Shown here: piece after piece, positions 814-63,624 of the stretch | Position numbering within the stretch: the stretch's first letter is position 1 | Layout of the letters: each line of letters starts with the position of its first letter | DNA from: Hormiphora californensis | Lineage: Eukaryota > Animalia > Ctenophora | NCBI GenBank assembly: GCA_020137815.1 | Contig: CM035355.1 | Coordinates: 7,254,001 to 7,318,000, forward strand | Reading direction: 5' to 3' | DNA length: 64,000 bases | Notes under the pieces: model-generated | Told to the model about the DNA's origin: nothing | Seen by the model: only the letters and a program-made list of their open reading frames with translations | The model's database searches: none | Translations under genes and position numbers: made by a program

Positions 814-14756
<13,943 letters not shown>

Positions 14757-18967: not shown

Positions 18968-19127
18968 ACAATGAACAATTAGTTTGATGTGTCTGGACAC
19001 ACTCATTTTATATGTTTGGCTTGAGAAATGTTTGGGGAAACATTAGAGTGAGATTTAATTGTCAGATATAGGTAGTTTGATTGTTACTCATTTACCTCTC
19101 ATATTTGGGCTTATAAGAAGTATAGTA

Positions 19128-20001
19128 CCGTGTGCGGCAAAAAAAATCCCCCCCTAGACCACCATAGTTGCCGATGTGGTGGAGAGCTGTAACTTGGCAG
19201 GGTTGCTCCACTATGTCTATCTTGATCCTGACAGAAAAATCAGAGCTCTAGCTCAAAATTCATTTTCATGAACGGAATGAACATTGTCATTCATTCCAGG
19301 AAAAAATATTTTCCGGTCCAAAATTTAACTAATTATGTTTGGCTATCGATTTGCTTTCCAATGTGACCAAGATCAGCTAAATTGGACAACCACAAGAGAC
19401 ACAGTGTCATGTTGCTTTAAGTTAGTCAGGTCATGTGATCTTCACCGAATCGTTGAGTTTCCGGGATTGCTAATCGGGCCAATGGGCAAAGGAATCTCGT
19501 ATCATGGCCGCTAATTGGGTATGTGTACCAATACAGGGTGATGTGATTCGAGGAAAGAGGACATTTATCAAAGAGCTACAGATCTGATGACCAATCAGCA
19601 TCGTCATCCCTCATTAGCAGATGTGATACGTGATTCTCTACCACTTAGACCAATTCGTAATACTGAACACGATCAACGATTCAGTGAAGATCACATGACC
19701 TGACTAACTTTAAGAAACATGACACTGTGTCTCTTGTGGTTGTCCAATTTAGCTGATCTTGGTCACATTGGAAAGCTAATCGATAGCCAAACATAATTAG
19801 TTAAATTTTGGACCGGAAAATATTTTTTCCTGGAATGAATGACAATGTTCATTCCGTTCATGAAAATGAATTTTGAGCTAGAGCTCTGATTTTTCTGTCA
19901 GGATCAAGATAGACATAGTGGAGCAACCCTGCCAAGTTACAGCTCTCCACCACATCGGCAACTATGGTGGTCTAGGGGGGGATTTTTTTTGCCGCACACG
20001 G
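19128..20001. mobile_element. Long-TIR (~330 bp) MITE with TA TSD (Tc1/mariner-pogo type)
   Basis: TA|CCGTGTGCGGCAAAA...TTTTGCCGCACACGG|TA. Confidence 0.85.
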
Positions 20002-20209
20002 TACATACATACAACAATATTCGTATGTTTAAATCTGTTAAAGAAGTTTAAAATCCTAGGGTACTCTACTAATAATTTCCCTATACATATTAGTTGCACA
20101 TATTTCCCCATATTGTAATATTATTTTCCCGTATATTATTTACAGTTATCTAGTTCTATGGTAACGTCTGAATACTGCAAACCATTACACGTTAGGAGCT
20201 TATATAACA

Positions 20210-26100: not shown

Positions 26101-28594
26101 TCATACAGTGTATGTGAGATCGATCTCTGTCGCGCGCGACGTCGATCTCACTCAGGTATCAATGTGGCCAAGATAGAATATACTTTTAGTATCAGTATGT
26201 GATCAGGACAATGTGGTCGCGTTAAATATATTTAAATAAGAGTACCATTGTTTGTTTTGTTCGAACGAGGCAAACCATTGTACTGTAACGCGAGCTTTAT
26301 GCTCTGAGAACTACTTAGCAACTTAAAATACTTGTTCTCCCTATTTAGTCTATAAAATAATGATCTTTGTTGCACCTTGTTCTCCCTATTTAGTCTATAA
26401 AATAATGATCTTTGTTGCACCTTGTTTGTTGCATTTTGATAATAACCCCATGCAGTCGCCACATAGGGATCATTCACCGTCACACAGGCAATAACGTCAA
26501 CCCCACGGTGCTTGAATTTGTCAAAGTCCTTCAGAAAACTTGGCAGATGGTTCTGAAACGTGTTAAATGTCTGAGAATCAAATTGAGGTTTGGCACCGCC
26601 AGACAGTAGTTATATTATTGATACTTATAGAAATCGAATTGCTGTAGCGTCCTGTGTCTAATACTAAATTTGGATTAATGTTTAAAATCCAGCTCGGCAA
26701 CTTACCGTGGAACAGACAGGTGTAAATGCGCCTGGTAATCCAAAGAGAATACCAAGACGTGCATTAACAAACAGATCCCTGATGTTCACGGGTATGGGAG
26801 GAGCACAGTTTTCATAAAGGATGATTGGCGGCAGGGAATGTCCAATTTTTATCTGATTTGGATTGTGATCTGTTGCTGTCTTCAAATGTGGCATTTCATG
26901 TCCATCCATGGGACTCTGTAGGAGTGAAAAATTATTGTGCGTGGTGAATAGTATTATAATAGTACAGTCGGACCCCGATTTAGGGACACCCTCGGGGGAA
27001 AGGCTCTTGTCCACTAAATCGGGGTGTCCACTAAATCGGGGTCAAAAAAGGTTAATTTCCTATATCGGGGGGAAAAAATCATGTCCCTAAATCGGGGTGC
27101 CACTAAATCGGGGGCCCCTAAATCGGGGTCCGACTGTACTGCTATATGCAGTCGGACCCCGATTTACCGGGATAATCTGGGCAAAGTGTTTTGACTGGTA
27201 AATAGGGGTGAATTTGTCCGGTAAATCGGGGCCCGGTAAATAGGGGTTCCGGCAAATCGGAGTCCGGGCTGTATGGCGGCGCCATACCCAAATTTGACTC
27301 TCAATCTGAGCTCGCGACAGTGCACTCAGATGGGGTTGCGGTGCCGGACAGAATCCGGGTGCAATTGTGTGCAAACTTTACTCATACTCAAAGTGCCCAC
27401 AATGTGAGGAGGTAATGGTTGTATAAAAAGTTGAAAATTCTCAAATTTGTGTCTCCAATGTGTCCATAAAGTGTCTCCAATGTCTCTCCAATGTCTCTCC
27501 AATGTCTCCCCAATGTCTCCCCAATATGTCCGTAATGTTTCCTCATAGTGTCCCAATGCCTCCCCAATGTGTCAATGTGTTCCCATTGTGTCCTCAATGT
27601 GTCCCCTAAGTCTCCACAAGGTGTCCCCATTGTGCAGTGTCCTCATTGAGGGTGTGCTATTTCAAATTTTTTTCGACTAGGCCATTCAGTATCTAGCTAA
27701 TGTGAAACTATGGACAATTCTCTATCACATCAGCGAAACAGAATCGAGATAGTGTTTGTCAGTTACGTTGGCATCGCGATTTAAAAAGTGTAGTTTTTAA
27801 CCGAAAAATGGTAAAAACAGAGAAATATGTGTGGTTTTCACCAGTTTTTGACATGTTCTTGATATCAACTTTTTATGTTCAGGATCGTGTTCAGCACCTC
27901 GAAACTGACAAGAATTGATATGCATCATTAAATGATGCTAAAGTTCATTTTTGAGCTAAAAATGTTCATTTTTGACAAAAAATGTTCATTTTGGACATGT
28001 TCTTAAATTTTGAGAGCTTTTTCATGAACGGGATCGTGTTCCGCAGGCCAAAATTAGTCGATTACAACCGAAATTTGCTTTCCACCAAGAAAAAACTTAA
28101 AAAAATTAAAATTCGTCCCCACGATTCTGCAAGTTGGTAAAATTAGCAAGAAAAAAGGGAGAAAATTTTTTATTTTTGTTCATAAAGTGGATATCTGAAG
28201 ACTCAAACTGAAAGTAACAGTTGTATAAGTTGTCACGAGACGATTTATATATGTGTTTTGTTCGAAATCACGCCCTAAAACAGACTTTTTGAAATGAATA
28301 TGCCCATATATGGGCATAGCTCGTGCCAACGTAATTGGGCCATGGTAGAGCCAAAACTTTGTGATAAAATGTTTTAGAATGATCGTAGGAGCTCATTTAA
28401 CCCGATACCAAGTGAAATTTTGAATTAAATTAGGCATTTGAAAAAATAGCACACCCTCAATGTGTGTCCTCTAGCGTTCCGTAGACAGTATGTGTCATTC
28501 TATACCCCAAACATACCGGTTGGCGGTCCCTTAATCTAATCATATTAATATAATACCTTTGTAGGAAACCTTTGAATTGATGAACAATTTTCAT
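23193..28594 (-). CDS. PRDX5: Peroxiredoxin-5 (atypical 2-Cys). Exons: 28594-28517 (probable first), 26915-26706, 26552-26421, 24985-24907, 23636-23517, 23281-23193
   Basis: GILFGLPGAFTPVCSTNHLPSF (peroxidatic Cys), GVDVIACVTVNDPYV..AWG, KVKVLAD..CEFTK, RSKRFAMILENGIVKYLTVE..TSC (resolving Cys). The first exon (MKIVHQFKGFLQRYYINMIRLRDRQP) is inferred from an open frame plus GT donor and is less certain. Confidence 0.92.
23677..23917. mobile_element. MITE with TA TSD
   Basis: TA|CCTTACTCTCGTT...AACGAGAGTAAGG|TA. Confidence 0.7.
25617..26171 (+). mobile_element. TTGG..CCAA element with 9-bp TSD (MULE-like); other copies 45890-46409, 51333-51402, partial inverted near 43880-43977
   Basis: TSDs GATAGAATA (25617 copy), CACCTGTGC (45890 copy), ATAAAACAA (51333 copy). 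Internal sequence is shared between the two long copies. Confidence 0.85.
27648..28458. mobile_element. Short-TIR element with GAG..CTC ends
   Basis: GAGGGTGTGCTATTT...AAATAGCACACCCTC inserted in a GTGTCCYCAAT tandem repeat; TSD unclear. Confidence 0.55.
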
Positions 28595-30280: not shown

Positions 30281-33200
30281 TAGTTAGGGGATTAAAGGCA
30301 GATTTAGGCCCTGACTGGGAAAAAATTTGCAACAAGCTAATTCCTTCACTAATGTGTTCCTAAGGGTCTCCACTAAGCCCCCAGAAAAGTGTAACGCGGT
30401 GCGAGGGGTGCAACATGGTCATTTCCGGTTGGGCGTGGCCGCGCATGGTGAAGATTGACACTTTCGTTCCTTTTGGGTTAAATAGTAAAATGAGGACATT
30501 AAAATGTGCAGAATCGACGGGTTAGTGGGGGTAGAACATGGCAAAATTAAAATTCCACGATTATTTTATGAGATAATTGCATAATTAGCATAATTAGTGC
30601 TCGCGCAAGGTAAATTCGATGGTTAATGGGGTAGGATGGGTTTGGACCCGGAAAAAGATTTACTCCGACCGAAAACATCGTGTTAGTAGGGGTAGAGCAT
30701 GTCAGATTTTTAATTAAACCATTTTCTAATGAGATAATTGCATAATTAGTAGACTAATTATCGAAAAAGTTTAAAAATTGGAACTTTGGATCCGGAAAAA
30801 GATCTACCCCGACCAAAAACAGCGTGTTAGTGGGGGTAGAGCATGTCAAAATTACCCTCAAACCATTTGCTAATGATATGACCCTTCCAGATATCCCTAA
30901 GACCTTACTGGATACCTCTCTGACCCTCTCAAATACCCCTCAGACCCTAACTGATACCTCTCTGACCATCCCAGATACCCTCAGATCCTACCTGATACCC
31001 ATCTGATCCTCCCAGATATCCCTCAGAGCCTACCTGATACCCTTCTAACCCTCTTAAATACTCCTCAGACCCTACCTGATACCTCACTGACCATCCTAGA
31101 TACCCCTCATATCCTACAAGATAGCCCTTAGACCGTGCTAGGTACCTCTCAGACCCTAAGAGATACCTCTCTGGCCCTCCAAGATACCCCTCAGACCCTG
31201 CTAGGTACCCCTCTGACCCTCCCAGATAGCCCTTAGACCGTGATAAATACCTCTGACTTCTGAGCGAGTGTTATACAGAAAATCTGAGTGGTTTCTAGCA
31301 TGCTTTGAGAGGTATTTAGCACGGTGTTAGACCCTCTGACCATGCTAGATACCCCTTTGAGCACGGTCTGGGGGGAATCAAGTCAAAGGGCTATCTAGTT
31401 GGATCTTAGGGGTATCAGTTAGGGTCTTAGGGGTAACTAGTAGGGTCTGAGGAGTTTCAGATAGGGTCTGACGGGTATCTAGCACGGCCTGAGCGGTATC
31501 TGGGATGGTCAGAGGGGTATCAGGTATGGTCTGAGGGGTATCTAGGACGGTCAGAGGGGTATCAGGAAGGGTCTGACGGGTATCTGGGATGGTCAGAGAG
31601 GTATCTAGTAGGGTCTGCGGGATATCTAGCACGGCCTGAGGGGTATCTGGGACGGTCAGAGGGGTATCAGGTATAGTCTGAGGGGTATCTAGCACGGTCT
31701 CAGGGCTATCTAGGACGGTCAGAGGGGTATCAGGTAGGGTCTGAGGGGTATCTGGGATGGTCAGAGAGGTGTCTAGTAGGGTATGCGGGATATCTAGCAC
31801 GGTCTAAGGGCTATCTGGGATGGTCAGAGGGGTATCAGGTAGGGTCTGAGGGGTATCTGGCCTCTGGGAGGATCAGAGGGGTATCAGGTAGGGTCTGAGG
31901 GGTATCTGGGAGGGTCAGAGAGGTGTCTAGTAGGGTCTGCGGGATATCTAGCACGGCGTGAGGGGTATCTAGGACGGTCAGAGGGGTATCAGGTGGGGTC
32001 TCAGGGGTATCTGGAATGGTCAGAGAGGTATCTAGTAGGGTCTGCGGGATATCTAGCACGGTCTAAGGGCTATCTGGGATGGTCAGAGGGGTATCAGGTA
32101 GGGTCTGAGGGGTATCTGTTAGGATCAGAGGGGTATCAGGTAGGGTCTGAGGGGTATCTGGGAGGGTCATATCATTAGCAAATGGTTTGAGGGTAATTTT
32201 GACATGCTCTACCCCCACTAACACGCTGTTTTTGGTCGGGGTAGATCTTTTTCCGGATCCAAAGTTCCAATTTTTAAACTTTTTCGATAATTAGTCTACT
32301 AATTATGCAATTATCTCATTATAAAATGGTTCAATTAAAAGTCTGACATGCTCTACCCCTACTAACACGATGTTTTCGATCGGAGTAGATCTTTTTCTGG
32401 GTCCAAACCCATCTTACCCCATTAACCATAACATTTAGCTTGCGCGAGCACTAATTATGCTAATTATGCAATTATCTCATAAAATAATCAAGGAATTTTA
32501 ATTTTGACATGTTCTACCCCCACTAACTCGTCGATTCTGCACATTTTAGTGTCCTCATTTTACTATTTAAGGGTACACCTGGCTTTTTTCATCATCGAGT
32601 GCCCAACCAAATGACTTCACCAGGGTTTAGGCCATACAAAATGGACCTCAAATATGCAATTTTAGCCCTAAAGTCGAATTCATATTTTTGCTACAGCCTA
32701 TTTTCAAAGTGGCGTTTTTTCAATTTTTGTTGAAATTTTTAACCTCAGGACCACTTTTTTTGAGATAGAAACATTAAATTCTTGGAATTTGAAGAGAATA
32801 TAAAGGTGAATAAGCCCAAAGAAGGATTTTTGAAATGGAGCTTATTTCTGGCCATGAGAACGGTTTACTTTTTTGCTTCTTTGACACGCTGGCTGAGAAT
32901 GTTCCCATGCTTCATTAGAGATGAAAATCTGGAAATAGTTGCTCAAAACGATTATCTATGTGGCCCAAAAATTTTGGAACTTTCCCGCCAAAGATGTGGT
33001 GTACAGAGCTTTTTTTGTGAAACCTGTCTTTTTGAAAAAGAGGGAAATTCCCTGTATCTCAAAAACGGATGATCGTAGAGACCTGGGACCGAGCTTAATC
33101 GATTCAGAAGGTTCGATTTTGGGGGGGTCTTCTGAGAGACATTTTGCTCCTACTCCAACCGTTTTTGCTGTAATTGCGAAAAAGGTATCAGCAAGTAAGG

Positions 33201-34064
33201 GGGAAATCAGCCCGAAGCAGGCTACTGGAATAGAGTTGTTTCCCCTTTTCATAGAATTGGTTTTTTGCAATTACAGCAAAATCGGTTGGAGTAGGAGCAA
33301 AATGTCTCTCAGAAGACCCCCCCAAAATCGAACCTTCTGAATCGATTAAGCTCGGTCCCAGGTCTCTACGATCATCCGTTTTTGAGATACAGGGAATTTC
33401 CCTCTTTTTCAAAAAGACAGGTTTCACAAAAAAAGCTCTGTACACCACATCTTTGGCGGGAAAGTTCCAAAATTTTTGGGCCACATAGATAATCGTTTTG
33501 AGCAACTATTTCCAGATTTTCATCTCTAATGAAGCATGGGAACATTCTCAGCCAGCGTGTCAAAGAAGCAAAAAAGTAAACCGTTCTCATGGCCAGAAAT
33601 AAGCTCCATTTCAAAAATCCTTCTTTGGGCTTATTCACCTTTATATTCTCTTCAAATTCCAAGAATTTAATGTTTCTATCTCAAAAAAAGTGGTCCTGAG
33701 GTTAAAAATTTCAACAAAAATTGAAAAAACGCCACTTTGAAAATAGGCTGTAGCAAAAATATGAATTCGACTTTAGGGCTAAAATTGCATATTTGAGGTC
33801 CATTTTGTATGGCCTAAACCCTGGTGAAGTCATTTGGTTGGGCACTCGATGATGAAAAAAGCCAGGTGTACCCTTAACCCAAAAGGAACGAAAGTGTCAA
33901 TCTTCACCATGCGCGGCCACGCCCAACCGGAAATGACCATGTTGCACCCCTCGCACCGCGTTACACTTTTCTGGGGGCTTAGTGGAGACCCTTAGGAACA
34001 CATTAGTGAAGGAATTAGCTTGTTGCAAATTTTTTCCCATTCATGAGCCTTTGTCCCCTAACTA
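30281..34064. mobile_element. Foldback element with TAG..CTA ends, 3-bp TSD TAG (Academ-like termini), ~600-bp TIRs and inverted 21-bp minisatellite arrays
   Basis: TAG|TAGTTAGGGGA...TCCCCTAACTA|TAG. The internal unit (approx. ACCCTCCCAGATACCCCTCAG) runs 30880-31255 and inverted 31370-32168. Confidence 0.8.
32571..33873. mobile_element. Second copy of the TTAA palindromic family, nested in the right TIR of 30281-34064
   Basis: Same termini, TTAA at 32567-32570 and 33874-33877. The uninterrupted target is visible in the host's left TIR near 30470-30495. Confidence 0.9.
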
Positions 34065-35873
34065 TAGAGTAACCCGAGAAGTTACGGACCCTACCCCACG
34101 TATTTTTTGACGTAGAATCCGAAAAACATAAAATTAAAATCCGGTCATGTGCCGTTTTTGCGTAAAACGGCAAAAACTGTTATTTTTAGCAATTTTCGAC
34201 TTTTTTCGTATTTCAGAGGTTCTAGTAAATCCCCCTTACAAGATACGGTCTTGAGAATTTTCACCAATAAAATATAATCAATTTGCTACAGATTGGTCTT
34301 GGGTTTGTGTGATTTGGTCAAAAACTATCGTTGCAGTGGCCCCTTAAAGATGTCTAATCTGCAAATACGTTTTTGGCTCCTGTGGCCTCAGTTGTGGACC
34401 AAAATAAGATTTATTATACACCAAAATTTGCGTCTTCTCAAGGCGAGCAACCTGGTTTTTACGGCATTCCATTTCATGCAGGCGTTGAGGAGTGACAGCT
34501 GAAAAATTGCTACAGTGGATTTTGGAAATACCCCTACTTCATCAAACTCTAACCCGGCCCTACTAAAATATAAATTTTTATACATGAAAATGAAGCTCAG
34601 ACAAATGCCAACAAGATGCAAAAAACGGGAAGTGTCTAACTTATTTCGTTCAGAAGTTATAGTCAAAATAAAAGTGCTTATATTTGCCTTTAAAATACAC
34701 TCTAAAACCATACTTTTAGACAATTTCTGACAACTTCAAACAGATTTTGTCCACAGGGGGCTAAGTTGGTGCACTGGAGGTGAAATTTTATTCGTATTGC
34801 ATTTTTAGACAGATTTGCTGATTTTCAGGGCTTTCAAAGGGTGTTTTTAAAGGCAAATATAAGCACTTTTATTTTGACTATAACTTCTGAACGAAATAAG
34901 TTAGACACTTCCCGTTTTTTGCATCTTGTTGGCATTTGTCTGAGCTTCATTTTCATGTATAAAAATTTATATTTTTCGAAATCTTTTCCGGGTTAGAGTT
35001 TGATAAAGTAGGGGTATTTCCAAAATCCACTGTAGCAGTTTTTCAGCTGTCACTCCTCAACGCCTGCATGAAATGGAATGCCGTAAAAACCAGGTTGCTC
35101 GCCTTGAGAAGACGCAAATTTTGGTGTATAATAAATCTTATTTTGGTCCACAACTGAGGCCACAGGAGCCAAAAACGTATTTGCAGATTAGACATCTTTA
35201 AGGGGCCACTGCAACGATAGTTTTTGACCAAATCACACAAACCCAAGACCAATCTGTAGCAAATTGATTATATTTTATTGGTGAAAATTCTCAAGACCGT
35301 ATCTTGTAAGGGGGATTTACTAGAACCTCTGAAATACGAAAAAAGTCGAAAATTGCTAAAAATAACAGTTTTTGCCGTTTTACGCAAAAACGGCACATGA
35401 CCGGATTTTAATTTTATGTTTTTCGGATTCTACGTCAAAAAATACGTGGGGTAGGGTCCGTAACTTCTCGGGTTACTCTAGGCGAGGTAAAACCTCCTTC
35501 CAGGACACCGTGTAGACACTCACACACACACAAGCGAACTATTGGGTGCTAATTAAATAGAGAGAGATAAAGATTACCAATGTCTCTCTTGTCTCTCTCT
35601 CTTGTCGCCATTCTGCCGCCCCTTGTTGTGTTAATCTCTCTTTTTCTTTGCAACAGTGTGTACACAACAGTACACACAAACAAAAGAAAGAGTCTTCACA
35701 CCTTTTTGGATTAATTCTTGCGTGTACTAAATTGCACTTTTAGAGTGGGCGTTATGAGATTTATCAATTTGGATGCAGTCATATCAGCCCGCTACCGCGC
35801 GGGTGTTATTTCTCCAAAAAATGCGCAGTGGGCGTTATATATACCGGGCTCAGTTGTTGTAAAATTTGCTTAC

Positions 35874-38080: not shown

Positions 38081-38162
38081 TTGAGAGAGAGATACAGACA
38101 AAGTAAAGAGACTTCTAAAAACTTACAAACAATAACCACACATTTCCAATAGCCAAACTATC

Positions 38163-39236
38163 ATGTTCGACTACATCCCCGGAAAGATTACGATGCAGAA
38201 CGGCACAACTCGTGACGAACTTCCAACAGATCGCTGGGAAATAGCCCTTATCCAGGCGTGGCTCATCCTATTGGTCGTCACAAACCTTCTTGGAAATACC
38301 TACATATTCCTTTCCAGCGTCATGTACAAGAGTCTCCGACTTGACCTTGTCTCGGAGACGATCATCCAAAACATTGCCCTTTGTGATCTGATGGTCGCTC
38401 TATCAGCCATGATCCCCGCTCTTGTCTACATGAGGAAGGGCATTGTCGGGGTTCTGGAGGAAAACGTTGCTGCCGGGTTTCTCTGTTACATCCTTGGACA
38501 CATTCAGCTGTTCTTCTACTACAGTTCCATACTGCTGATAACAGCTCTGACTGTCAGCAAACTGATGACAGTTGAACGGCCACTTCGAATCAGACTCCGG
38601 ACCCACAAGCAAGGAATCACGATATGCATGCTCTGCTACCTTACACCCTTCTTCATATTGATCATCAACATGATCAAGAAAACCCGGTACTATCTAGATC
38701 TACAGATATACATCTGCCTACCCGTGGGTAGGATCGAGGGTGTCTGGCTGCATGCCAAATCCTTCATATCAGCTCCGGTCATCGTATCTCCCCTGGCGGT
38801 CCTCCTCACCACACTGGTCCTCCTGATCCGGGTCAAGATGTTAAACAGGAGGGTTAACACCCAAGGAGCTGTGGTTGCGATCATTGTGGCAGCGTGTTAT
38901 CTCATCAGTAGTGGACCAATCACAATCGCCATTGCCCTCAACACCGGGGAATGGAAGTGGTTTATGGTGATGGTGATGAGCACTAAAACTCAAACTGCCA
39001 TAACCGATGCTCTTCTCACTCCGAGAATGATTTTAGGCTGCAAAATGCTCAGTTACCTAAATGGTAGCATCAATTTTGCCCTTTACTACGCTTCCTTGAA
39101 CAGCTTCCGGTTGTTTTTTAAAAGTCGGATGTTCCTGCTCAAACGAAGTCTAAACTCGTCTGGAAATTACATCAATGGAGCGGCCCTGGAAATGCAACAT
39201 ATGACACGGAGAAAAACGAACGAACATAATACATAG
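38163..39236 (+). CDS. Intronless rhodopsin-like (class A) 7TM GPCR, 357 aa, orphan
   Basis: N-terminal NGT sequon, TM1 LLGN, TM2 IALCDL, Cys at the top of TM3 and in ECL2 (YICLP), SKL at the DRY position, TM7 NGSINFALY (NPxxY variant), helix-8 FR. Confidence 0.9.
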   Translation: MFDYIPGKITMQNGTTRDELPTDRWEIALIQAWLILLVVTNLLGNTYIFLSSVMYKSLRLDLVSETIIQNIALCDLMVALSAMIPALVYMRKGIVGVLEENVAAGFLCYILGHIQLFFYYSSILLITALTVSKLMTVERPLRIRLRTHKQGITICMLCYLTPFFILIINMIKKTRYYLDLQIYICLPVGRIEGVWLHAKSFISAPVIVSPLAVLLTTLVLLIRVKMLNRRVNTQGAVVAIIVAACYLISSGPITIAIALNTGEWKWFMVMVMSTKTQTAITDALLTPRMILGCKMLSYLNGSINFALYYASLNSFRLFFKSRMFLLKRSLNSSGNYINGAALEMQHMTRRKTNEHNT

Positions 39237-52191: not shown

Positions 52192-52574
52192 CTGCAATAT
52201 TTATAAGGGATGGTTAGAGATAGCAAGAAAAAGCATGAGTGGGGTTGAATTGCTCGAAGCGCAGCCACCTATCAGAGCATTGGCGGAGCACGCAAGAACT
52301 GTGGTCAGAGCATTGGCTTGGTGACGCGGCCACCCCTACACTGGCCGCGCGAAGCGCGGCAAAACGAAGCCCACGAAGCGGGCTGAGTGTAACATAATAA
52401 GGATTTCATAACATAATAAGGATTTCATAATAAGGATTTCATAACATAATAGGGGATTTCATCACCAAAGCATTGGCCTGACAGGCGGCCACAATGACAG
52501 GCGAATCAAGAGTGGGGATATTACAGTCCGTCATACACATTTCCACCTGGAATTTCTTGCTCGTATTTTTTTTG

Positions 52575-52919
52575 GAGGACCTCCTCCAGATGAACAACGC
52601 GACATTGTATGGTATCGGGAAACTCCCTATTCTCAGCACCAAGATCGCTGAAAGGAGACTCAGACTCGCCGGCCATGCTGCACGTCATCCGGAACTAACG
52701 CTCAACAAAGTGTTACTTTGGGAGCCTCTCCACGGACACTCCAGACGAGGGCGACCAAAACAGACCTTTGTGGATGTACTGCGGCGGGACACGGGACTCA
52801 GGGAAACCTCCGAAATAGCTTCTTTGATGGCTGATCGTGTAGAGTGGAGCAATGTTATCCATGGAGTTCGGAAATACCACACGTGGAATCCGCCCTAAGT
52901 CAAGTAAGTCAGTAAGTCA
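52575..52919 (+). mobile_element. 3' fragment of a non-LTR retrotransposon (RTE-like)
   Basis: RRLRLAGHAARH..VLLWEP.HG..RRGRPKQTFVD is a typical ORF2 C-terminus, followed by a short-repeat tail TAAGTCAAGTAAGTCAGTAAGTCA. Confidence 0.8.
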
Positions 52920-53405: not shown

Positions 53406-55094
53406 TTCTATTCTTTTTGGTATGATGTTTCTCCCCTTTTGGTAAATCCCCCTATACCTCGACCTTTCTACGTCTACAATACCAAGTTTCTAGAATAAAC
53501 AATTCAGTGATGTAGTTTAAATGTTGAATCATAAATATGTGAATAAATCCAGAAGGGTGCGAGATACGACTTTTTGTTTGGGGTACGACCCCCCATAAAT
53601 CGACCTTTCCGGTTTAGATGTGTTATGAAAGAACTCTCTCCGACCAGCCAGTCAGGAGATATTCAAAATATGCATAAAATCATAAATATGTGAATAAATC
53701 CAGAATGGTGCGAGATACGACATTTTGTTCGGGGAACGACCCCCCATAAATCGACCTTTCCGGTTCAGATTAGCTAAAAAAGAAGTCTCTCCGACCATCG
53801 TGTTCGGAGATAAGTGGGAAATGCATATTTAATTAGGGCATAATTAGGTCTTAATTAAGGTTGTATGAAACGAAAAATATCCTATTACACGCACCCTATC
53901 TAGTACTATCACTCCACAAAATTTCAACTTTGAAGCTTTAATCGTTTTCTAGAGCTAAGCTCCCGGGATTTTGGTGGTATATATATCTATATATAGACGA
54001 CACTTTTATACCCGGATTTGACACCACTACCGTTTCGGTATCTTAGATCCAATCAGTCTGTAACTTTGGATTCCAGCAGTGATAGTAAAAGGAAGGCTGG
54101 ATACCAAGTTTCAAAACTCTAGCTCAACTGCATGCTTGTGTAATTTGATCCTAAAATCCGGTCTCATCGCGTTCGTATGGTACTGCACTGGCCGGGGAGT
54201 CAAGGGGGACTGTGCACTTTAGAGGCTTCGTGCTCCCTACTTTGCACACACACATTCGTCATTCTTTATTATTCTTTCTTACTCGTTCTCCCTCGCATCT
54301 TTCTTTGAGGGGGGTGGAAGGGAGGGGGGGGGGGGGTGGATGGGCCCCGGGGCACTTGCCAGTGCAGTGATGAGTTATCTCAACAGTTTTCAGTTTGTTG
54401 CCCAACTCTCAAACATCAGTTGGCAGCACGTGTGCCATCATTATATGCTCGGAGCTATTTTAGATACGAGAGAGTGTGATCATCTGCCTTTTAGCTTTGC
54501 TGAAACGTGTCCTTGTCTTGCTGTATAATGTGAAATAATATATATATATTTCTTCCTGTCCTAGATTTCCATGAATATAATTTTGACATTTCTCGGCTTG
54601 TGCATTGTAAGTGGAGTCTATGGAGATTACACGACAAAGGGAACATCCACGGAGATAAGAGACGATGCATCTGCAGTGGCAGCCTGTAACTCAGGAGACC
54701 GGGTAGGTTATACTGGGATCGTTGGTTACGAAATAACCCCTCAAGGTCGCTTCGCGTGCCGACAAGGGAGGGGTAACAAAGCTTCGTTACCACTTGGGAC
54801 GGACCATGCTGGAAACCCCTTCAAAATGCTTGTTAGCTCTTTTTATTTCGACGCCAATTCCAATTTTCCTGACTGATATTTATGATTTTCAGGCTATAAG
54901 ATGTAGCTGTCCTTACGCAATTAGTTTCGTCCTGGATGGTCTAGTCATCTCCTCCGACCGATGCACTTGTTATATGTCGGGTAGCAGTACCCACTACATC
55001 ACTGTCACTACTACTTGTGCCACACCTCGCAGTTGTAAAACTGGACCTACTGCGGAATACATCTACCCTTTAACAGGGTTCACAGAGGGTAACT

Positions 55095-55627
55095 TTGTGG
55101 GAAGTTGGGTCTGGAATTTTAAATTTGACTTGCTGATATGATTAGGGACTCTATAAAAAGTCCAAAGTACCATCCCACAGGTCTCTACCACCCCCGGTTC
55201 ACTAATTAGTCGTAATTATGTGATTTATGACGTTTATATCGCCAATTAGCACTAATAATACCAGTTCCTGGTCACTTAGAGCTTAGATTTTGACACCAGC
55301 TGATAGAGTATCACTAGATTAGTGGGCATTCAAATTTTGAGGTCGATCGGAGTTATGGTCGAGGAGTTATAACCGTTTTTCCGTTTGGCTGGCGGTTGGC
55401 TGGCACCACGTGGGATTACGGGTTTAGGTCGTCGTAGGAGGTCGTCATTAGTCGGGTTCGATCGGGCTCGATGAGGTGATCAAAACCTAGTGGGGCCAGA
55501 CCTTGGCCCCACCCCGTTCTTGGGTTATTAGGCTTTTTCGGTTTTGGCGGGAAACCGAAAAAGCCCAATAGAGTCCCTAATCATATCAGCAAGTCAAATT
55601 TAAAATTCCAGACCCAACTTCCCACAA
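55095..55627. mobile_element. ~58-bp-TIR element at the exon 2 donor region of the Cys-rich gene
   Basis: TTGTGGGAAGTTGGGTCTGG...CCAGACCCAACTTCCCACAA; no TSD evident. Confidence 0.7.
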
Positions 55628-56380
55628 CCGACCCTACTATGTAAGTAATACGTACCCTGACTGAATTCATGGACATTGTGTCTCGACTCAAGTTGATAAT
55701 ATAGCCTAGCAGTTAGGGATTTTCTTCCCTATTTTAATTCTTGCTCAGATCTCTTTATTCATCCCAGATGACAAGACACTAGAATGTGAAGAAGGGTACA
55801 CGATGCTTCGCTGCTATTTTAAGACGTAAGTCAATAATTGATACTATAATAATTGATACTAAATCTCTATTATAAGTTGGAGATGAACGACGTGGTGGCC
55901 GTTGATTCAGCGGTATCTATGCGACAGTCTGCTCCTTCATAAAACACTTTATATGACGAAAGCTGTAAAGGTGTTGCTCGCACTTTGTTAATATTTTCGA
56001 ATGACTTTTAATATGCCAGTCCCCATAGTTATCAATTCAGTTGCCATGGCAACCGTGTTGTTGAAAGGGGTGAAAAGAACCATCCGGCAAAGCCGGATGG
56101 GTTATCAAAAAACCCTTACTTGAGGTGCACCCGATGGGTGCGCTAGTAATAATCATAATATACTTTCTACATGTTATTTTACCACGAATACCTTTGAATT
56201 TCATTTGCAGCCTATGGCCTGCATCCAATATGCCATCTACCCAAGGGACAAGGGTTGGGTGCAGGGGCTTCCCTCCTAGTCGGTGTGCCATCATAATTTA
56301 GATCCGGTCGCCCATTACCCCGGGGTTCGGTAGAAACAAGGTAGTGGAGATGAGGTAGAGAAGTGACGACACACGGATTT

Positions 56381-56423
56381 TAGGAAAGTACTTTCGTAGA
56401 TAAAGTCTACATCATCAGTCCTA
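56381..56423 (-). ncRNA. Minimal type-I hammerhead ribozyme, mirror copy
   Basis: Reverse complement of 59142-59184. Confidence 0.85.
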
Positions 56424-56725
56424 TAAAAATATGTAATGTTAGAGCACACACTCTCAGGAGATAAAAATATATAAATATAAATCGAGGAAAAAATTGAACG
56501 GAGCTATCCAAAACAACAAAGGAGAACCACTAACTAACTAAAAAACTAAGCACGCTCGCGAAATCAGGGATTCTGAATGAGATGTCAATGTATGCAGAGG
56601 GCGCCGCGCACAGCTAAACACAGAAACACGGCGCCAAGGGCCACACAGGTGCGACACCGCGCGTTACAACTCGCACACACTGTCACCTCAAACCAGACAT
56701 CCCTGTGTCTAAACAATAAGAAACA

Positions 56726-57841
56726 CTATCTCACGACTAAAATTCTGTTGAGTCCGAATAATTTTGTCCGATAATTGTCTATTAATTTACTTTCAGCCCT
56801 ATCCAATCCCACTGCCGATACCTGCTTAACTAAGCCTAATTTAAAAATATTAAGGTCCATAGCGTCTCTGTGTTTCTCCCAACAATGTTGTGCCAATGCA
56901 CTGCCCTGGTGTTCGAGTTCCGAGAATTTAGCACGGTGACCGTTGATTCTCTTATGAAAAGGTTGCATTGTCTGCCCCACATAGGTATCCTCTTTCCGGT
57001 TGCCCTGCGCCCTTGTACAGATTGAGCATTGTGCAACATATATTACATTTTTGCTCTTGCAGTTTAGGTGGGGGTTCAATTTTAGGCGTTTTCCATTCAC
57101 CGAGAGACATGGAGATGGTGACATTAGAGGGCAAGTTTTGCAGCCTCTTCCCCCACATTTCTGGTTGAATTCCCCCTCCTCCTCCTGAGTTTCCACCTCC
57201 ATGTTGGACTCACTGAGTTTTCTATTTCTCACTACTGTATTGCCGATTGATTTTAGCTTTCGTAGTGCTAGAACCACCTTCACGTCACCCGCTACCGCCC
57301 GAATGTCTTCCTCCAAGTTCCTCAAGAAGGTTCGGAGATCATCCACCCCTTCAAAGTAGTTGGTGGCGAATATCAGTTGGGTAGTGGGATTCTGTTGTGT
57401 TGGGGGTAACTCCTGTTCCAACTGTAGTCTCTCCAGGGCCTTCGGCTGTAGGTTATCAAGGTCCCTTTCCAGATGTCCGCTCTTGAGTAAGTCCACCCTG
57501 AGTTCTTCTAGATCCTGCACTCGCGTGCTCTCTCTAGAGTTCCTCTTAATTACCCTGAGCATTTGACTGAAGATGACGGATTTAAACACGTGTCTTGGGT
57601 GGAACGATTCCGTCCGTAGGTACATCCTTGCGTCTGTCGGTTTCCTATACAACTTGTGTTCCAAGTTCCCTTCTTCTAGAGATACTGTTACATCTAGGAA
57701 GTTAACCGAGTCCCCAAACTGTTGGTCCCCAAAATTTATCCCATAACTTTTAGTGGCCCTATTCAACCTGGCTATAAAGGTGGTCAGCTGCCTCTCGGTT
57801 CCCCTCCAAATCCCAAACACGTCGTCGATGAACCTCCTCCA
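56726..57841 (-). CDS. Penelope-like RT (from the catalytic FIDD motif) plus GIY-YIG endonuclease, 5'-truncated
   Basis: WRRFIDDVFGIW, VNFLDV, LYRKPTD..YL..S.HP, KCGGRGCKTCP, NVIYVAQCSIC..YVGQT..RINGH..LAQH..E..LI..FGLN. Confidence 0.93.
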   Translation of the reverse strand, partial: WRRFIDDVFGIWRGTERQLTTFIARLNRATKSYGINFGDQQFGDSVNFLDVTVSLEEGNLEHKLYRKPTDARMYLRTESFHPRHVFKSVIFSQMLRVIKRNSRESTRVQDLEELRVDLLKSGHLERDLDNLQPKALERLQLEQELPPTQQNPTTQLIFATNYFEGVDDLRTFLRNLEEDIRAVAGDVKVVLALRKLKSIGNTVVRNRKLSESNMEVETQEEEGEFNQKCGGRGCKTCPLMSPSPCLSVNGKRLKLNPHLNCKSKNVIYVAQCSICTRAQGNRKEDTYVGQTMQPFHKRINGHRAKFSELEHQGSALAQHCWEKHRDAMDLNIFKLGLVKQVSAVGLDRAESKLIDNYRTKLFGLNRILVVR

Positions 57842-57843
57842 AA

Positions 57844-58839
57844 CAGTTTGGGGACTCGGTTAACTTCCTAGATGTAACAGTATCTCTAGAAGAAGGGAAC
57901 TTGGAACACAAGTTGTATAGGAAACCGACAGACGCAAGGATGTACCTACGGACGGAATCGTTCCACCCAAGACACGTGTTTAAATCCGTCATCTTCAGTC
58001 AAATGCTCAGGGTAATTAAGAGGAACTCTAGAGAGAGCACGCGAGTGCAGGATCTAGAAGAACTCAGGGTGGACTTACTCAAGAGCGGACATCTGGAAAG
58101 GGACCTTGATAACCTACAGCCGAAGGCCCTGGAGAGACTACAGTTGGAACAGGAGTTACCCCCAACACAACAGAATCCCACTACCCAACTGATATTCGCC
58201 ACCAACTACTTTGAAGGGGTGGATGATCTCCGAACCTTCTTGAGGAACTTGGAGGAAGACATTCGGGCGGTAGCGGGTGACGTGAAGGTGGTTCTAGCAC
58301 TACGAAAGCTAAAATCAATCGGCAATACAGTAGTGAGAAATAGAAAACTCAGTGAGTCCAACATGGAGGTGGAAACTCAGGAGGAGGAGGGGGAATTCAA
58401 CCAGAAATGTGGGGGAAGAGGCTGCAAAACTTGCCCTCTAATGTCACCATCTCCATGTCTCTCGGTGAATGGAAAACGCCTAAAATTGAACCCCCACCTA
58501 AACTGCAAGAGCAAAAATGTAATATATGTTGCACAATGCTCAATCTGTACAAGGGCGCAGGGCAACCGGAAAGAGGATACCTATGTGGGGCAGACAATGC
58601 AACCTTTTCATAAGAGAATCAACGGTCACCGTGCTAAATTCTCGGAACTCGAACACCAGGGCAGTGCATTGGCACAACATTGTTGGGAGAAACACAGAGA
58701 CGCTATGGACCTTAATATTTTTAAATTAGGCTTAGTTAAGCAGGTATCGGCAGTGGGATTGGATAGGGCTGAAAGTAAATTAATAGACAATTATCGGACA
58801 AAATTATTCGGACTCAACAGAATTTTAGTCGTGAGATAG
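57844..58839 (+). CDS. Second, more truncated copy of the Penelope-like RT C-terminus plus GIY-YIG
   Basis: Reverse-complement mirror of the minus-strand copy, starting at QFGDSVNFLDV. The two translations in the ORF track are identical where they overlap. Confidence 0.92.
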   Translation, partial: QFGDSVNFLDVTVSLEEGNLEHKLYRKPTDARMYLRTESFHPRHVFKSVIFSQMLRVIKRNSRESTRVQDLEELRVDLLKSGHLERDLDNLQPKALERLQLEQELPPTQQNPTTQLIFATNYFEGVDDLRTFLRNLEEDIRAVAGDVKVVLALRKLKSIGNTVVRNRKLSESNMEVETQEEEGEFNQKCGGRGCKTCPLMSPSPCLSVNGKRLKLNPHLNCKSKNVIYVAQCSICTRAQGNRKEDTYVGQTMQPFHKRINGHRAKFSELEHQGSALAQHCWEKHRDAMDLNIFKLGLVKQVSAVGLDRAESKLIDNYRTKLFGLNRILVVR

Positions 58840-59141
58840 TGTTTCTTATTGTTTAGACACAGGGATGTCTGGTTTGAGGTGACAGTGTGTGCGAGTTGTA
58901 ACGCGCGGTGTCGCACCTGTGTGGCCCTTGGCGCCGTGTTTCTGTGTTTAGCTGTGCGCGGCGCCCTCTGCATACATTGACATCTCATTCAGAATCCCTG
59001 ATTTCGCGAGCGTGCTTAGTTTTTTAGTTAGTTAGTGGTTCTCCTTTGTTGTTTTGGATAGCTCCGTTCAATTTTTTCCTCGATTTATATTTATATATTT
59101 TTATCTCCTGAGAGTGTGTGCTCTAACATTACATATTTTTA

Positions 59142-59184
59142 TAGGACTGATGATGTAGACTTTATCTACGAAAGTACTTTCCTA
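59142..59184 (+). ncRNA. Minimal type-I hammerhead ribozyme in the PLE 3' region (pseudo-LTR)
   Basis: TAGGA-CTGATGA-T-GTAGA-cttta-TCTAC-GAAA-GTAC-TT-TCCTA. Stem I TAGGA/TCCTA, core CUGAUGA, stem II GTAGA/TCTAC, GAAA, palindromic vestigial stem III (AAAGTACTTT). Confidence 0.85.
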
Positions 59185-59952
59185 AAATCCGTGTGTCGTC
59201 ACTTCTCTACCTCATCTCCACTACCTTGTATCTACCCAAGGGGAAGTGACTATTTCTGATGGAAAGTGTTCTGTAACAAGCAGCCCTGTTAAATTCGAAC
59301 TCACTGCGGTTTGCAAGATAACACCGTGAGTGCAGTGAGAAAATGAAAATGTATTAATAATATATAATAATTAACCCCCTCCTATGTTAGTCTAGTTTGG
59401 ACTCTCGTTAAAACAACTTTTGCTAACACACACACTGTAACTTTCAGAGAGTATTGGAGTGAAAAGTGTGGTAAGAATCTGTTTAGAGCACTTTAATCCC
59501 TGATGCTACAAACTTTCAGCTGGTGTTTGAATAATCATTAAATTATACACTCTTGCTAATCAGAAATGTCATATATGTATAACCATATATCGTCCGTTGT
59601 GATCCCTGCTTATCAACCTCTTTTAAATATCCCCTGAGTGTATAAGCAAGATGCCCCAAAAACAAAATTCTTTATAATTACAGTCAAAAAATTCAACTCA
59701 GATATCGTGTGTCTATAACAGCTAAAAGACCATTCCTTCTCACACACCTGCTGCATCCCTCTTAAAATTCTTTTTTTCAAATTGGTCGTTCTGTAATACC
59801 TCTCAGACCTAGTCTTTAGTCTATCTCGATCGTCTCCCTCCCTCCCACCATTATAGTCTACCTCTCCCCTTTCCTCGCCTAACATTCTCTCCCACAGCTT
59901 TTCAGTGTCTACCACCCCCCCCTTCCCTACTTCCCCCTACTTCTCCCCTGGC

Positions 59953-60052
59953 ACCTTAAAGTATGATTCTTTCACTTTAATAATTCCAATCTCGTCATCA
60001 TATATGATGACGAGATTGGAATTATTAAAGTGAAAGAATCATACTTTAAGGT
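59953..60052. repeat. 100-bp perfect palindrome with no spacer (TTAA-flanked 86-bp core)
   Basis: ACCTTAAAGTATGATTC...CATCATA|TATGATG...GAATCATACTTTAAGGT, centre between 60002 and 60003. Confidence 0.85.
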
Positions 60053-60351
60053 TGAGAAATGAGAGAGAAAGGAAATAGTGGGTGAGCCGTGAGAACGGAG
60101 AGGGAAAGAGAAAGGGTGGAAACTAGACAATCAATATCCAAAGATTACATCTTTCTATTTATAGACCTCGCTGGCTCAAATAGACGTGCGGCTTGCTCAA
60201 ACAATTTGCACTGGTCTATTGGGCCGTGCACTGCCGTGAGTTTGTGTCTCGATAGACGCACGCCCTCTGACAGATGTGTGTAAAGATCACAAAGAATCAC
60301 TGGAAACACGATTAAATTCGGAGAGAGTGAGAGACAATCGTATAACGTTAA

Positions 60352-61740
60352 GGGTACGCTAACCAAAAATTTTTTTCGAGTGCAGGGAAATCTCTCACCG
60401 TAGGGTTGTAGGCCATGCCAAGGAGACCTCAAATATGCAATTTTAGCTCTCAAGGCGAATTCATATTTTTGCTACAGCTGCTTGAAAAATGAACTGAAAA
60501 CAAGTTTTTGGCATCTTAAAAAATTTTTTTTAAAGATAGAAGCATGAAAATTTGGGGATTTGAAGAGGACATGAAGGGGAATAACCACAAAAACTTTTTT
60601 TTCAATCCGAGCTGATTTCCGGTCCTGAGATGGATTTCTTTTTTTCCACTTTAACGCCCTATTTGGCAAAGTTCCGAAAATATGTGAAAGCTGTAAATTG
60701 GTGAAAAGTTGCGTCTAACGATTATCTAAGTGGCCATAAATTTTGGGCGTGTCCTTATTTGAAATAAGATGTACAGAGTTTTTTTTGTGAAAGCCGTCAT
60801 TTCAGAAATAAATAAATTCCCTGTATCTCAAAAACGGCTGATCGTAGAGACCTGAGACTATGCTTAAACGATTCAGAAGGTCCGATTTTGGGGGGGTCTT
60901 CTGAGAGACATTTTGCTCCTACTTCAACCGTTTTTGCTGTAATTGCGAAAAACAAATTCTATGGAAAGGGCAAAAGCTAAACTCCAATATCCTGTAATTA
61001 GGGAATTTTGGCTAAGAAAGGACCGAAACTATGGAAAAATGTGTAACAAGCTAATTCCTTCATTATTTGGTCCATATGGGTCCCTATAATCATCAAAAAC
61101 AAAATCACAAAAAATCCACGATGGCGAAGATGGGTTTTTGTTTTTCGCAATTACAGCAAAAACGGTTGAAGTAGGAGCAAAATGTCTCTCAGAAGACCCC
61201 CCCAAAATCGGACCTTCTGAATCGTTTAAGCATAGTCTCAGGTCTCTACGATCAGCCGTTTTTGAGATACAGGGAATTTATTTATTTCTGAAATGACGGC
61301 TTTCACAAAAAAAACTCTGTACATCTTATTTCAAATAAGGACACGCCCAAAATTTATGGCCACTTAGATAATCGTTAGACGCAACTTTTCACCAATTTAC
61401 AGCTTTCACATATTTTCGGAACTTTGCCAAATAGGGCGTTAAAGTGGAAAAAAAGAAATCCATTTCAGGACCGGAAATCAGCTCGGATTGCAAAAAATTT
61501 TTTTGTGGTTATTCCCCTTTATGTTCTCTTCAAATCTCCAAATTTTCATGCTTCTATCTTTTAAAAAAATTTTTAAGATGCCAAAAACTTATTTTCAGTT
61601 AATTTTTCAAGCAGCTGTAGCAAAAATATGAATTCGGCTTGAGAGCTCAAATTGCATATTTGAGGTCTCCTTGGCATGGCCTACAACCCTACGGTGAGAG
61701 ATTTCCCTGCACTCGAAAAAAAATTTTGGTTAGCGTACCC
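60352..61740. mobile_element. Related TTAA palindromic family member
   Basis: TTAA|GGGTACGCTAACC...GGTTAGCGTACCC|TTAA. Shares GACCTCAAATATGCAATTTT and ATTCCCTGTATCTCAAAAACGG blocks with the 21225 family. Confidence 0.88.
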
Positions 61741-62256
61741 TTAATGTGCGTCTCTCTCTCTTTAATCTCGCACGTGAATATGAGCCACGGCGCGGCGCAT
61801 CTGCACGTGCGGTTCTTCCAGATAGAAATTCCAAATAGAAATTCCAGATAGAAATTCCAAATAGAAATGTGTATGACGCCGTGAAAAGATGTGGAGTTGA
61901 AGTGATAAAGATAAGCGAGTTGATCTGAAGACATCCAGGAGTTGTCTGGCGGCGCCGACCCGATCTGAGCACAAAACAAAACGGGGTCTGGCGCCATCAG
62001 ACATTCCAGGAGGTTATAACAAAAGTGAACCTATATCGTGTGTACCTTTTCCACAGACATCAGCTGAGCGAGGTCCATTGTTTCTACTCGTGATATACTC
62101 TCCCAAACTATTGGGTCGGGTCACACTAGGCTCTGAGATCTTGTACACCTCGATCGCTTCCACCGAGGATTTCCTGCAAAAACGGGTCTGAATTCGTCTT
62201 TATCCTAAAATAATCCAACTTGAACAACTTTCCAAAAAAAAAGAAGAATAACTTAC

Positions 62257-63172: not shown

Positions 63173-63624
63173 ATGGTCCAGCTGAAACTAGCTATTCTGC
63201 TGGCCCTGATGACGGCAGTTGTTATTGGAAACTCTGCATACGACAACACGGTGAGTTAATTAGCTGTCTAGTTACGACCGACTGACTTCTCAGCACGGCA
63301 TTATTTGTGTAGGTCACACCGCATTTTATTTCTATTTGAGTGTTCGGTAGAGCAAGGGCCAAGGCATTTTATGTTCTAAAGTCCTTCTTTCCCCACCCTA
63401 AACCAACATATCCACCTCCATTTCCGCACCCTAAACACCAATATACTCCAATATCATATCCACCAATATTATATCCACCAATATTATATCCAACCCAGAA
63501 TAACGAGGAAGCGTCGGTATCGGAGGATGCTGATGGAATACTGATTGGATATCCCCGAACTATTATTAACAACCGACACCGGCCAAAGCTTGGGAACGTT
63601 GAAAACAAGCAGACATGGTGGTAG
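63173..63624 (+). CDS. Small secreted 67-aa prepropeptide (neuropeptide-like). Exons 63173-63250, 63499-63624
   Basis: MVQLKLAILLALMTAVVIG signal peptide, GTGAGT donor, phase-0 CAG acceptor, then NNEEASVSEDADGILIGYPRTIINNRHRPKLGNVENKQTWW*. Confidence 0.7.

What the first reader, a model, noticed from the sequence alone, without database searches (positions are those of the whole stretch)
56235..59242. Tail-out inverted dimer of a hammerhead-bearing Penelope-like element inside one 13-bp TSD
Seen: two 5'-truncated copies of the same Neptune-type PLE are joined head-to-head with both 3' ends facing the target. The arms are 1388 bp and look identical, the spacer is 118 bp, one copy has an 88-bp longer 3' end, and one TSD brackets the whole. 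The right junction falls where the element sequence (TTCTACC, visible in the longer arm) matches the target (ATCTACC), i.e. microhomology. Known: PLEs make inverted pseudo-LTR structures and carry minimal hammerheads. Inference: both nicks of one staggered cut each primed reverse transcription on a 3' end (two templates, unlike L1 twin priming) and the cDNAs were then joined. Read-through from the host gene would give a ~1.4-kb dsRNA stem, with the sense-strand hammerhead near its 3' base, a possible small-RNA source.
Basis: partly seen in the sequence, partly recalled or inferred. Interest (0 to 1): 0.8.

Follow-up and report, generated by a model that had tools for sequence, protein, structure and literature searches.

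The report
Long head-to-head Penelope retrotransposon insertion
Two back-to-back partial copies of a Penelope-type jumping gene sit inside one 13-base target duplication, in a predicted coding exon of a likely comb-jelly gene; the layout is already known for these elements, but both outer ends stop at the same short motif, which suggests that each cut DNA strand primed its own copy.

Summary
The arms are identical, one 13-bp TSD brackets the unit, and the empty site is present in contigs of three other individuals. The element is a C-terminal GIY-YIG Penelope-like element (Neptune/Nematis-type linker) with a minimal hammerhead; its closest named relatives are from ctenophores. An inverted 5'-truncated copy, a tail at one end and one TSD is the described insertion form of these elements, and siRNA from such inverted copies is published. 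This scan noted the same layout before in several other genomes, in shorter form. New here: the two outer ends follow the only two CCTTGT hexamers in the copy and match the family's two 3'-end clusters. That favours priming at both nicks (0.55) over cDNA fold-back (0.33). 'Two RNA templates' is not shown. The insert splits the predicted last exon of a small secreted protein (no RNA or homologue support). No read of the inserted allele itself was seen. Verdict: real, known kind, useful mechanistic example; interest 0.35.

The parts
56235..56247 (+). Left target-site duplication, 13 bp
   Evidence: single copy in the empty allele of X1, X3, X6
56248..57843 (-). Left 5'-truncated PLE copy, 1596 nt (57842-57843 shared with the right copy)
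   Evidence: parent contigs match up to 57843
56248..56335 (-). 88-nt 'tail', on the left copy only; ends at family end cluster A (56247-56248) right after a CCTTGT (56253-56248)
56336..57723 (-). Left arm of the perfect inverted repeat
56381..56423 (-). Minimal type-I hammerhead motif in the left copy (mirror of 59142-59184)
56726..57841 (-). ORF fragment, 371 aa: RT catalytic motif, thumb, Cx4CxxC linker, GIY-YIG endonuclease with CCHH
57724..57841 (-). 118-nt unpaired centre = extra 5' ORF sequence of the left copy, not a spacer
57842..59229 (+). Right 5'-truncated PLE copy, 1388 nt, without tail; ends right after CCTTGT (59224-59229), at family end cluster B
57842..58839 (+). ORF fragment of the right copy (thumb, linker, GIY-YIG, stop)
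59142..59184 (+). Minimal type-I hammerhead: helix I 5 bp, CUGAUGA, extra U, helix II 5 bp with G10.1-C11.1, GAAA, palindromic helix III, predicted cut after U17 at 59179
   Evidence: features as in PMC4209133; no Rfam hit at gathering score
59230..59242 (+). Right target-site duplication; bases 2-7 match the element just beyond end B
54571..54702 (+). Predicted host exon 1 (signal-peptide-like start)
   Evidence: model only
54893..55088 (+). Predicted host exon 2
   Evidence: in-frame 6-nt insertion in X5
55768..55825 (+). Predicted host exon 3
56211..56247 (+). Predicted last host exon, part before the insertion
59243..59330 (+). Predicted last host exon, part after the insertion (28 codons and stop)

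Best explanation
This is a single, likely recent insertion of an endonuclease-bearing Penelope-like retrotransposon, made of two identical 5'-truncated copies joined head to head inside one 13-bp duplication, and it was likely built when both strands of one staggered cut each primed reverse transcription of the element's RNA. Shown: the geometry, the TSD, the empty site in other individuals, two family 3'-end clusters 88 nt apart, a CCTTGT motif at both ends, and a 2-nt overlap at the centre. Inferred: the GIY-YIG domain left 13-nt 3' overhangs; the top-strand end primed at start site A (tail end, about 1.6 kb copied) and the bottom-strand end at start site B (about 1.4 kb), perhaps helped by pairing of the overhang with UCUACC just beyond B; the two cDNA 3' ends were then joined through 2 nt and filled in. 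Whether one RNA (tandem units or strand displacement) or two RNAs served as template is open. The insert likely truncates a small secreted host protein, and read-through would give a 1.4-kb hairpin RNA.
For: CCTTGT occurs twice in the 1597-nt left copy, and each outer end lies directly after one. Of the 10 listed loose-end rows on the element's 3' side, 3 rows (4 contigs; X1, X5, X6; X5 and X6 are one sample) with unrelated flanks lie at 56338-56340, 2-4 nt from the right arm's end. Six of the 32 listed pieces begin at 56247-56248, where summed depth jumps (X1 140 to 1265, X3 91 to 971). A 90-nt contig in X1 joins a tail arm (56247-56287) to sense-strand sequence starting at 56366 (26/30 identical): a second head-to-head junction whose arms do not overlap, which fold-back alone cannot make. 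PMC11167929: a purified PLE protein cuts and extends both target strands, starts at two internal RNA sites that delimit the tail, and is predicted to be a dimer. [quoted passage not shown]
Against: The two 5' ends lie only 118 nt apart; independent truncation gives this in 2.7-7.1% of cases under three assumed length distributions. The right copy is nested in the left at both ends, as fold-back requires. A 6-nt or longer target match next to site B occurs for 467 of 60,888 window 13-mers (0.8%); that fits DNA end-joining as well as priming, and the primer's last base would be mismatched. The step in depth at B is clear in X1 (598 to 1110 to 1871), weak in X3 and absent in X5 and X6. The X1 contig is one short diverged record, shown for 30 of its 47 loose letters, and could be a hairpin that lost its centre. 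PMC3846280 reads head-to-head junctions as self-priming. No read of the inserted allele was seen.
Confidence: 0.55

Rival explanations
1. Fold-back. One cDNA was primed at site A from the top-strand nick and stopped at 57843. Its 3' end paired with itself 118 nt back through 2 nt (4 with a bulge) and copied itself into the second arm, which was then joined to the bottom-strand overhang at the TCTACC microhomology or cut at site B by the endonuclease.
For: Nested arms, a centre made only of element sequence, 2-nt overlap, 100% arm identity; close 5' ends are unlikely by chance; 6-nt target match at the right junction. Self-priming is proposed for PLE head-to-head junctions (PMC3846280). Self-annealing with 2-bp microhomology makes inverted duplications of genomic DNA at L1 sites (10.1101/2024.12.14.628481).
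Against: It needs the join to fall exactly on the second CCTTGT and on end cluster B, although two other 6-nt target matches lie within 70 nt. It does not explain the non-overlapping head-to-head contig in X1, nor tails at either end.
Confidence: 0.33
2. An assembly or read artefact (fold-back read, or a collapsed longer tandem/inverted array) made or shortened the palindrome, or polishing made the arms identical.
For: The arms are 100% identical; no listed contig from the 5 runs laid shows the central or outer junctions; no genome or reads of the source were available.
Against: A fold-back read would not rejoin the true right flank with a 13-bp duplication at a family end motif. The empty site is intact in three other individuals. 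Other long inverted repeats in the window keep arm differences (88-98% identity), so the assembly does not erase them in general.
Confidence: 0.07
3. Two separate events (a second insertion at the first, or recombination or central deletion in a longer inverted array) produced the present centre.
For: Long palindromes tend to lose their centres (recalled, not from a call); this would explain the close 5' ends.
Against: One TSD only, no second duplication, identical arms that share variants at which the other individuals' contigs mostly differ (56358, 56467, 56495, 57110). A later central deletion is compatible with the best explanation rather than opposed to it.
Confidence: 0.05

Closest known systems
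Inverted insertion unit of EN+ Penelope-like elements (Drosophila virilis Penelope, Adineta Pen2/Pen2a, Neptune, Naiad; PMC3846280, PMC8557442)
   Same: 5'-truncated copy plus adjacent inverted 5'-truncated copy, tail at one end only, one TSD around the whole, hammerhead in the terminal repeat.
   Different: Both arms reach about 1 kb into the ORF and there is no full-length or tandem body; the tail is 88 nt rather than 30-40 nt; the target is a predicted coding exon, not AT-rich or microsatellite DNA.
PAc (Poseidon of Anolis) in vitro reaction (PMC11167929)
   Same: Two RT start sites that delimit the tail; both target strands cut and extended.
   Different: PAc starts without homology to the target, in an AC-rich stem-loop; here both ends follow CCTTGT and one has a 6-nt target match. 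That paper does not discuss inverted insertions. Different clade.
L1 twin priming (definition recalled; mentioned in passages)
   Same: Both nicks prime; the element's 3' sides face outward; microhomology at the second priming site and at the centre.
   Different: L1 products are non-overlapping or slightly overlapping pieces of one RNA with a poly(A) end (recalled); here 1388 nt are duplicated, there is no poly(A), and both ends are fixed family start sites.
Inverted Penelope copies as siRNA sources in transformed Drosophila melanogaster (PMC3681739)
   Same: Long inverted repeats of Penelope sequence that could form dsRNA.
   Different: There siRNAs were mapped to the inverted regions; here no RNA data exist.

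Membership tests
EN+ Penelope-like elements (C-terminal EN) | RT followed by a C-terminal GIY-YIG endonuclease in one ORF | tested here: met
   One open frame from the RT catalytic motif to the EN end. The fragment itself has no Pfam hit, nor do P0001, P0003, P0008; relatives P0029 and P0033 (E 2e-27, 9e-23) carry RVT_1 and GIY-YIG and align over the motifs.
EN+ Penelope-like elements (C-terminal EN) | CCHH motif with two Cys between GIY and YIG; conserved R, H, E, N | tested here: met
   VIYVAQCSIC...YVGQT...RINGH...QH...E...LN; definition.
EN+ Penelope-like elements (C-terminal EN) | DKG motif upstream of the RT core | tested here: inconclusive
   This region is truncated in the window; 36 of 40 homologues carry DKG.
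EN+ Penelope-like elements (C-terminal EN) | Minimal type-I hammerhead in the terminal repeat (extra nucleotide after A9, G10.1-C11.1, palindromic helix III) | tested here: met
   All three present. Cleavage not tested; the triplet is CUU; Rfam has no hit; no covariation data.
EN+ Penelope-like elements (C-terminal EN) | Inverted 5'-truncated copy, one-sided tail, one TSD | tested here: met
   The tail is 88 nt, longer than the 30-40 nt described.
EN+ Penelope-like elements (C-terminal EN) | Partial tandem / direct pLTR upstream of the ORF | not testable with these tools
   Absent at this locus; no genome held.
Neptune clade | CX2-5CxxC linker between RT and EN (shared with Nematis; absent in Penelope/Poseidon; CxCX5C in Hydra) | tested here: met
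   Cx4CxxC; definition.
Neptune clade | Placement with Neptune rather than Nematis in an RT tree | not tested
   No named reference sequences were returned; Neptune is paraphyletic in PMC8557442.
L1-type twin priming | Two non-overlapping segments of one poly(A) RNA | tested here: not met
   Segments overlap by 1388 nt and there is no poly(A). It works like twin priming but is not that product. Definition recalled.

The most novel reading that the evidence does not exclude
A dimeric Penelope-like protein primes both strands of one cut at once, starting at two sequence-defined sites (each just after CCUUGU, 88 nt apart) and copying kilobase lengths in step before the cDNAs are fused. The tail, the inverted copy and the TSD of PLE insertions would then all come from one reaction, and one landing could knock out a host exon while creating a 1.4-kb dsRNA source against the element.
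Probability: 0.4. Interest if true: 0.55.

Novelty: new member of a known kind. Interest (0 to 1): 0.35.

Why it matters
How Penelope-like elements make their inverted copies and one-sided tails is unsettled: self-priming and endonuclease resolution are proposed in print, and both-strand extension is shown in vitro without a link to inverted insertions. My two searches for that link found no paper on it (3 listings, none on the topic by title; only PMC11167929). This locus has an empty allele, base-exact junctions and a shared end motif, so it yields a countable prediction for any long-read genome of this animal. The layout itself is ordinary and the scan has met it repeatedly, which limits the interest.

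Tried and rejected
No genome was held, so copies could not be counted genome-wide. Rfam: 0 hits in the window. No other copy of the element in the window. Metagenome contigs: 45 stretches matched a peptide pattern, none was a relative; the tail pattern had 0 matches. No RNA holder listed, and the guessed RNA run X17 laid 0 records; neither is evidence on expression. Host gene: no homologue among longer or near-length proteins, no Pfam family for three exon pieces beyond one weak DUF at E 0.08, no Atlas result, and the sensitive search was still queued and never collected. My first host models (donor 54607, an extra exon at 55877) were dropped: the extra exon has an in-frame stop, the first acceptor tried for exon 3 broke the frame, and the donor reads GC in X1 and X3. 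A suspected internal repeat in the host protein was not significant (632 of 2000 shuffles scored as high). Purifying selection was not seen: 18 nonsynonymous to 4 synonymous codon changes, although none is a stop and none hits a Cys (only 40 of 86 variant sites were displayed). The fold of the element's 3' 191 nt is not better than shuffles (z -1.15). PMC9977147 passages had nothing on inverted PLE insertions. Contig depth was not used as copy number.
Full report
Observation. The window carries a perfect inverted repeat of 1388 nt (56336-57723 and 57842-59229). The 13-mer at 56235-56247 recurs at 59230-59242 and nowhere else in the 64 kb; such a repeat appeared in 10 of 20,000 random draws. 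The insert is 2982 nt. The 118 nt between the arms continue the minus-strand frame of the left copy into the RT catalytic motif. Contigs of the parent element in three public runs match the window up to 57843 and then run on upstream (X1 record 8, X3 record 16 of 2868 nt, X5 record 24). So the left copy is 56248-57843, the right copy 57842-59229, they share 2 nt, and the right copy lies inside the left at both ends.

Element. The 371-aa fragment found 40 relatives among longer proteins, the best at 64% identity. The two named close clusters come from ctenophores, Pleurobrachia bachei and Bolinopsis microptera, so the window is likely a ctenophore (inference). The fragment has no Pfam hit of its own; 2 of the 5 relatives scanned carry RVT_1 and GIY-YIG. 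It shows a Cx4CxxC linker and a GIY-YIG domain with the CCHH residues. By the definitions in PMC8557442 (passages) this is a C-terminal EN+ PLE of Neptune/Nematis type; the clade was not fixed by a tree. The 3' region holds a minimal type-I hammerhead with the three marks listed in PMC4209133 (passages): an extra nucleotide after A9, a G10.1-C11.1 pair and a palindromic helix III. Rfam does not detect it and activity is untested.

Empty site and age. Fifteen runs hold part of the region, six of them more than half of the words, all labelled organism A. I laid 5 of the 17 listed runs. In X1, X3 and X6 (three samples, two studies) contigs leave the window at 56247 and continue with the right flank, at 26/29, 30/30 and 27/30 identity to 59243 onward. 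The target therefore holds one copy of the 13-mer. These individuals differ from the window at many flank positions, so they are not its source. No listed piece or joint shows the inserted allele (24 of 5599 and 32 of 151 pieces displayed). The allele is thus likely rare and young, and it is known only from the assembly. Other long inverted repeats in the window keep 88-98% arm identity, which argues against general collapsing of arms.

Two family ends. In one search, 6 of the 32 listed pieces start at 56247-56248, and summed depth jumps there in all four runs. Ten loose-end rows lie on the element's 3' side (24 of 32 loose-end rows shown in all). Three rows (four contigs) with unrelated flanks lie at 56338-56340, two at 56246 and 56251, four at 56258 or 56266 with shared letters (one locus or one continuation), and one at 56379 is a diverged variant of the element. 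The right arm ends at the equivalent of 56336. CCTTGT occurs twice in the left copy, and each of the two outer ends directly follows one. The step in depth at the second site is clear only in X1. One 90-nt contig of X1 joins 41 nt of tail to sense-strand sequence from 56366 (26/30): a second, short head-to-head junction with non-overlapping arms.

Mechanism. The orientation requires 13-nt 3' overhangs, with the top-strand end facing site A and the bottom-strand end facing site B. PMC11167929 (parts 1-2 of 4, holding the main text) reports that a purified PLE protein cuts and extends both strands, starts at two internal sites that delimit the tail, and is modelled as a dimer; it does not discuss inverted insertions. 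Together with the shared end motif, the end clusters and the non-overlapping contig, this makes priming at both nicks the best reading (0.55). Against it, the 5' ends are only 118 nt apart (2.7-7.1% if independent), the arms are nested, and the right junction has a 6-nt target match expected for 0.8% of targets. These favour fold-back of one cDNA (0.33), in line with the self-priming view of PMC3846280 (passages) and with 2-bp self-annealing at L1 sites (10.1101/2024.12.14.628481, passages). The arms share variants at which the other individuals' contigs mostly differ, which shows one source copy, not one molecule.

Host gene. With the insert removed in a script, the site lies in an open exon between a TTGCAG acceptor (56210) and a stop at about 59328. 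Four exons with GT-AG sites join in phase to 169 aa with a signal-peptide-like start and 12 Cys; the insertion would keep 141 residues and replace the last 28, two of them Cys, by 17 others. Support is modest. The splice sites were chosen after the fact. Among 22 variant codons none is a stop or hits a Cys, and 13 of 15 listed indels and joints are intronic; of the two that start in exon 2, one is an in-frame 6-nt insertion and the other, read by eye, carries a like insertion and keeps the donor. But 18 of the 22 changes are nonsynonymous, no homologue was found and no RNA holder is listed. I put the gene at about 0.7. The plus strand has no AATAAA in 56211-59800 and one ATTAAA at 59537, so a transcript could cross both arms and form a 1.4-kb stem. 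The hammerhead would then be paired with the earlier arm (-87.8 against -9.3 kcal/mol) and likely inactive. siRNAs from inverted Penelope copies are already reported (PMC3681739, passages).

Comparison and verdict. An inverted 5'-truncated copy, a tail at one end and one TSD is the typical PLE insertion. Unchecked notes of this scan describe the same layout, and the same two-nick idea, for short stubs in other genomes; they are not independent support. None was found for this sequence or this genome. What differs here is the arm length (about 1 kb of ORF in each), the 88-nt tail, the shared CCTTGT end motif, a documented empty allele and a probable exonic target.

Noticed in passing
window 21221-22530, 32567-33877, 60345-61747: Three related fold-back elements of 1.3-1.4 kb with ends TTAA-GGGTA...TACCC-TTAA and arms 95-98% alike; TTAA sites with RR...YY ends recall Kolobok-type DNA transposons (recalled label, not tested).
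   Followed up: partly
window 59953-60052: Perfect 100-bp palindrome with no spacer, with TTAA near both ends, 700 bp right of the insertion.
   Followed up: no
window 10028-13971, 19120-20008, 30312-34043, 34065-35480: More long inverted-repeat elements, some filled with a 32-bp-type minisatellite; the region is rich in fold-back DNA.
   Followed up: no
window 55095-55627 and about 55845-56165: Two high-copy elements in the introns of the predicted host gene (the first with 60-bp perfect terminal inverted repeats); contigs of other individuals skip them.
   Followed up: partly
window 56247-56390 in runs X5 and X6: The last 140 nt of the element have summed contig depth in the thousands to tens of thousands, against a few hundred over the ORF, and many diverged variants: a large population of short end-only copies is likely.
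   Followed up: partly
window 56258-56266 in runs X1, X3, X5, X6: The same loose sequence leaves the tail here in all three individuals; it may be a fixed older insertion or the element's continuation beyond the tail.
   Followed up: no
window 56596-56746 in runs X1 and X3: A variant of the element replaces 149 nt around the ORF end with 13 other letters.
   Followed up: no
window 56242-56254: The last 6 nt of the TSD (CAAGGG) recur 7 nt further on inside the tail end, so the top-strand overhang is complementary to the RNA just inside start site A, yet those bases were kept.
   Followed up: partly
window 54893-55088: Predicted host exon 2 differs between individuals at many nonsynonymous sites in a cluster at codons 73-79, while Cys residues are unchanged.
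   Followed up: partly
window 17017-17406, 26232-26609, 38136-39236, 63176-63250: Neighbouring host genes: an Aph-1 exon, a redoxin-family exon, a single-exon rhodopsin-family GPCR and another signal-peptide-like first exon (read by eye).
   Followed up: no
window 52482-52898: 138-aa ORF that reads by eye like the C-terminal end of a LINE ORF2; no Pfam hit.
   Followed up: no
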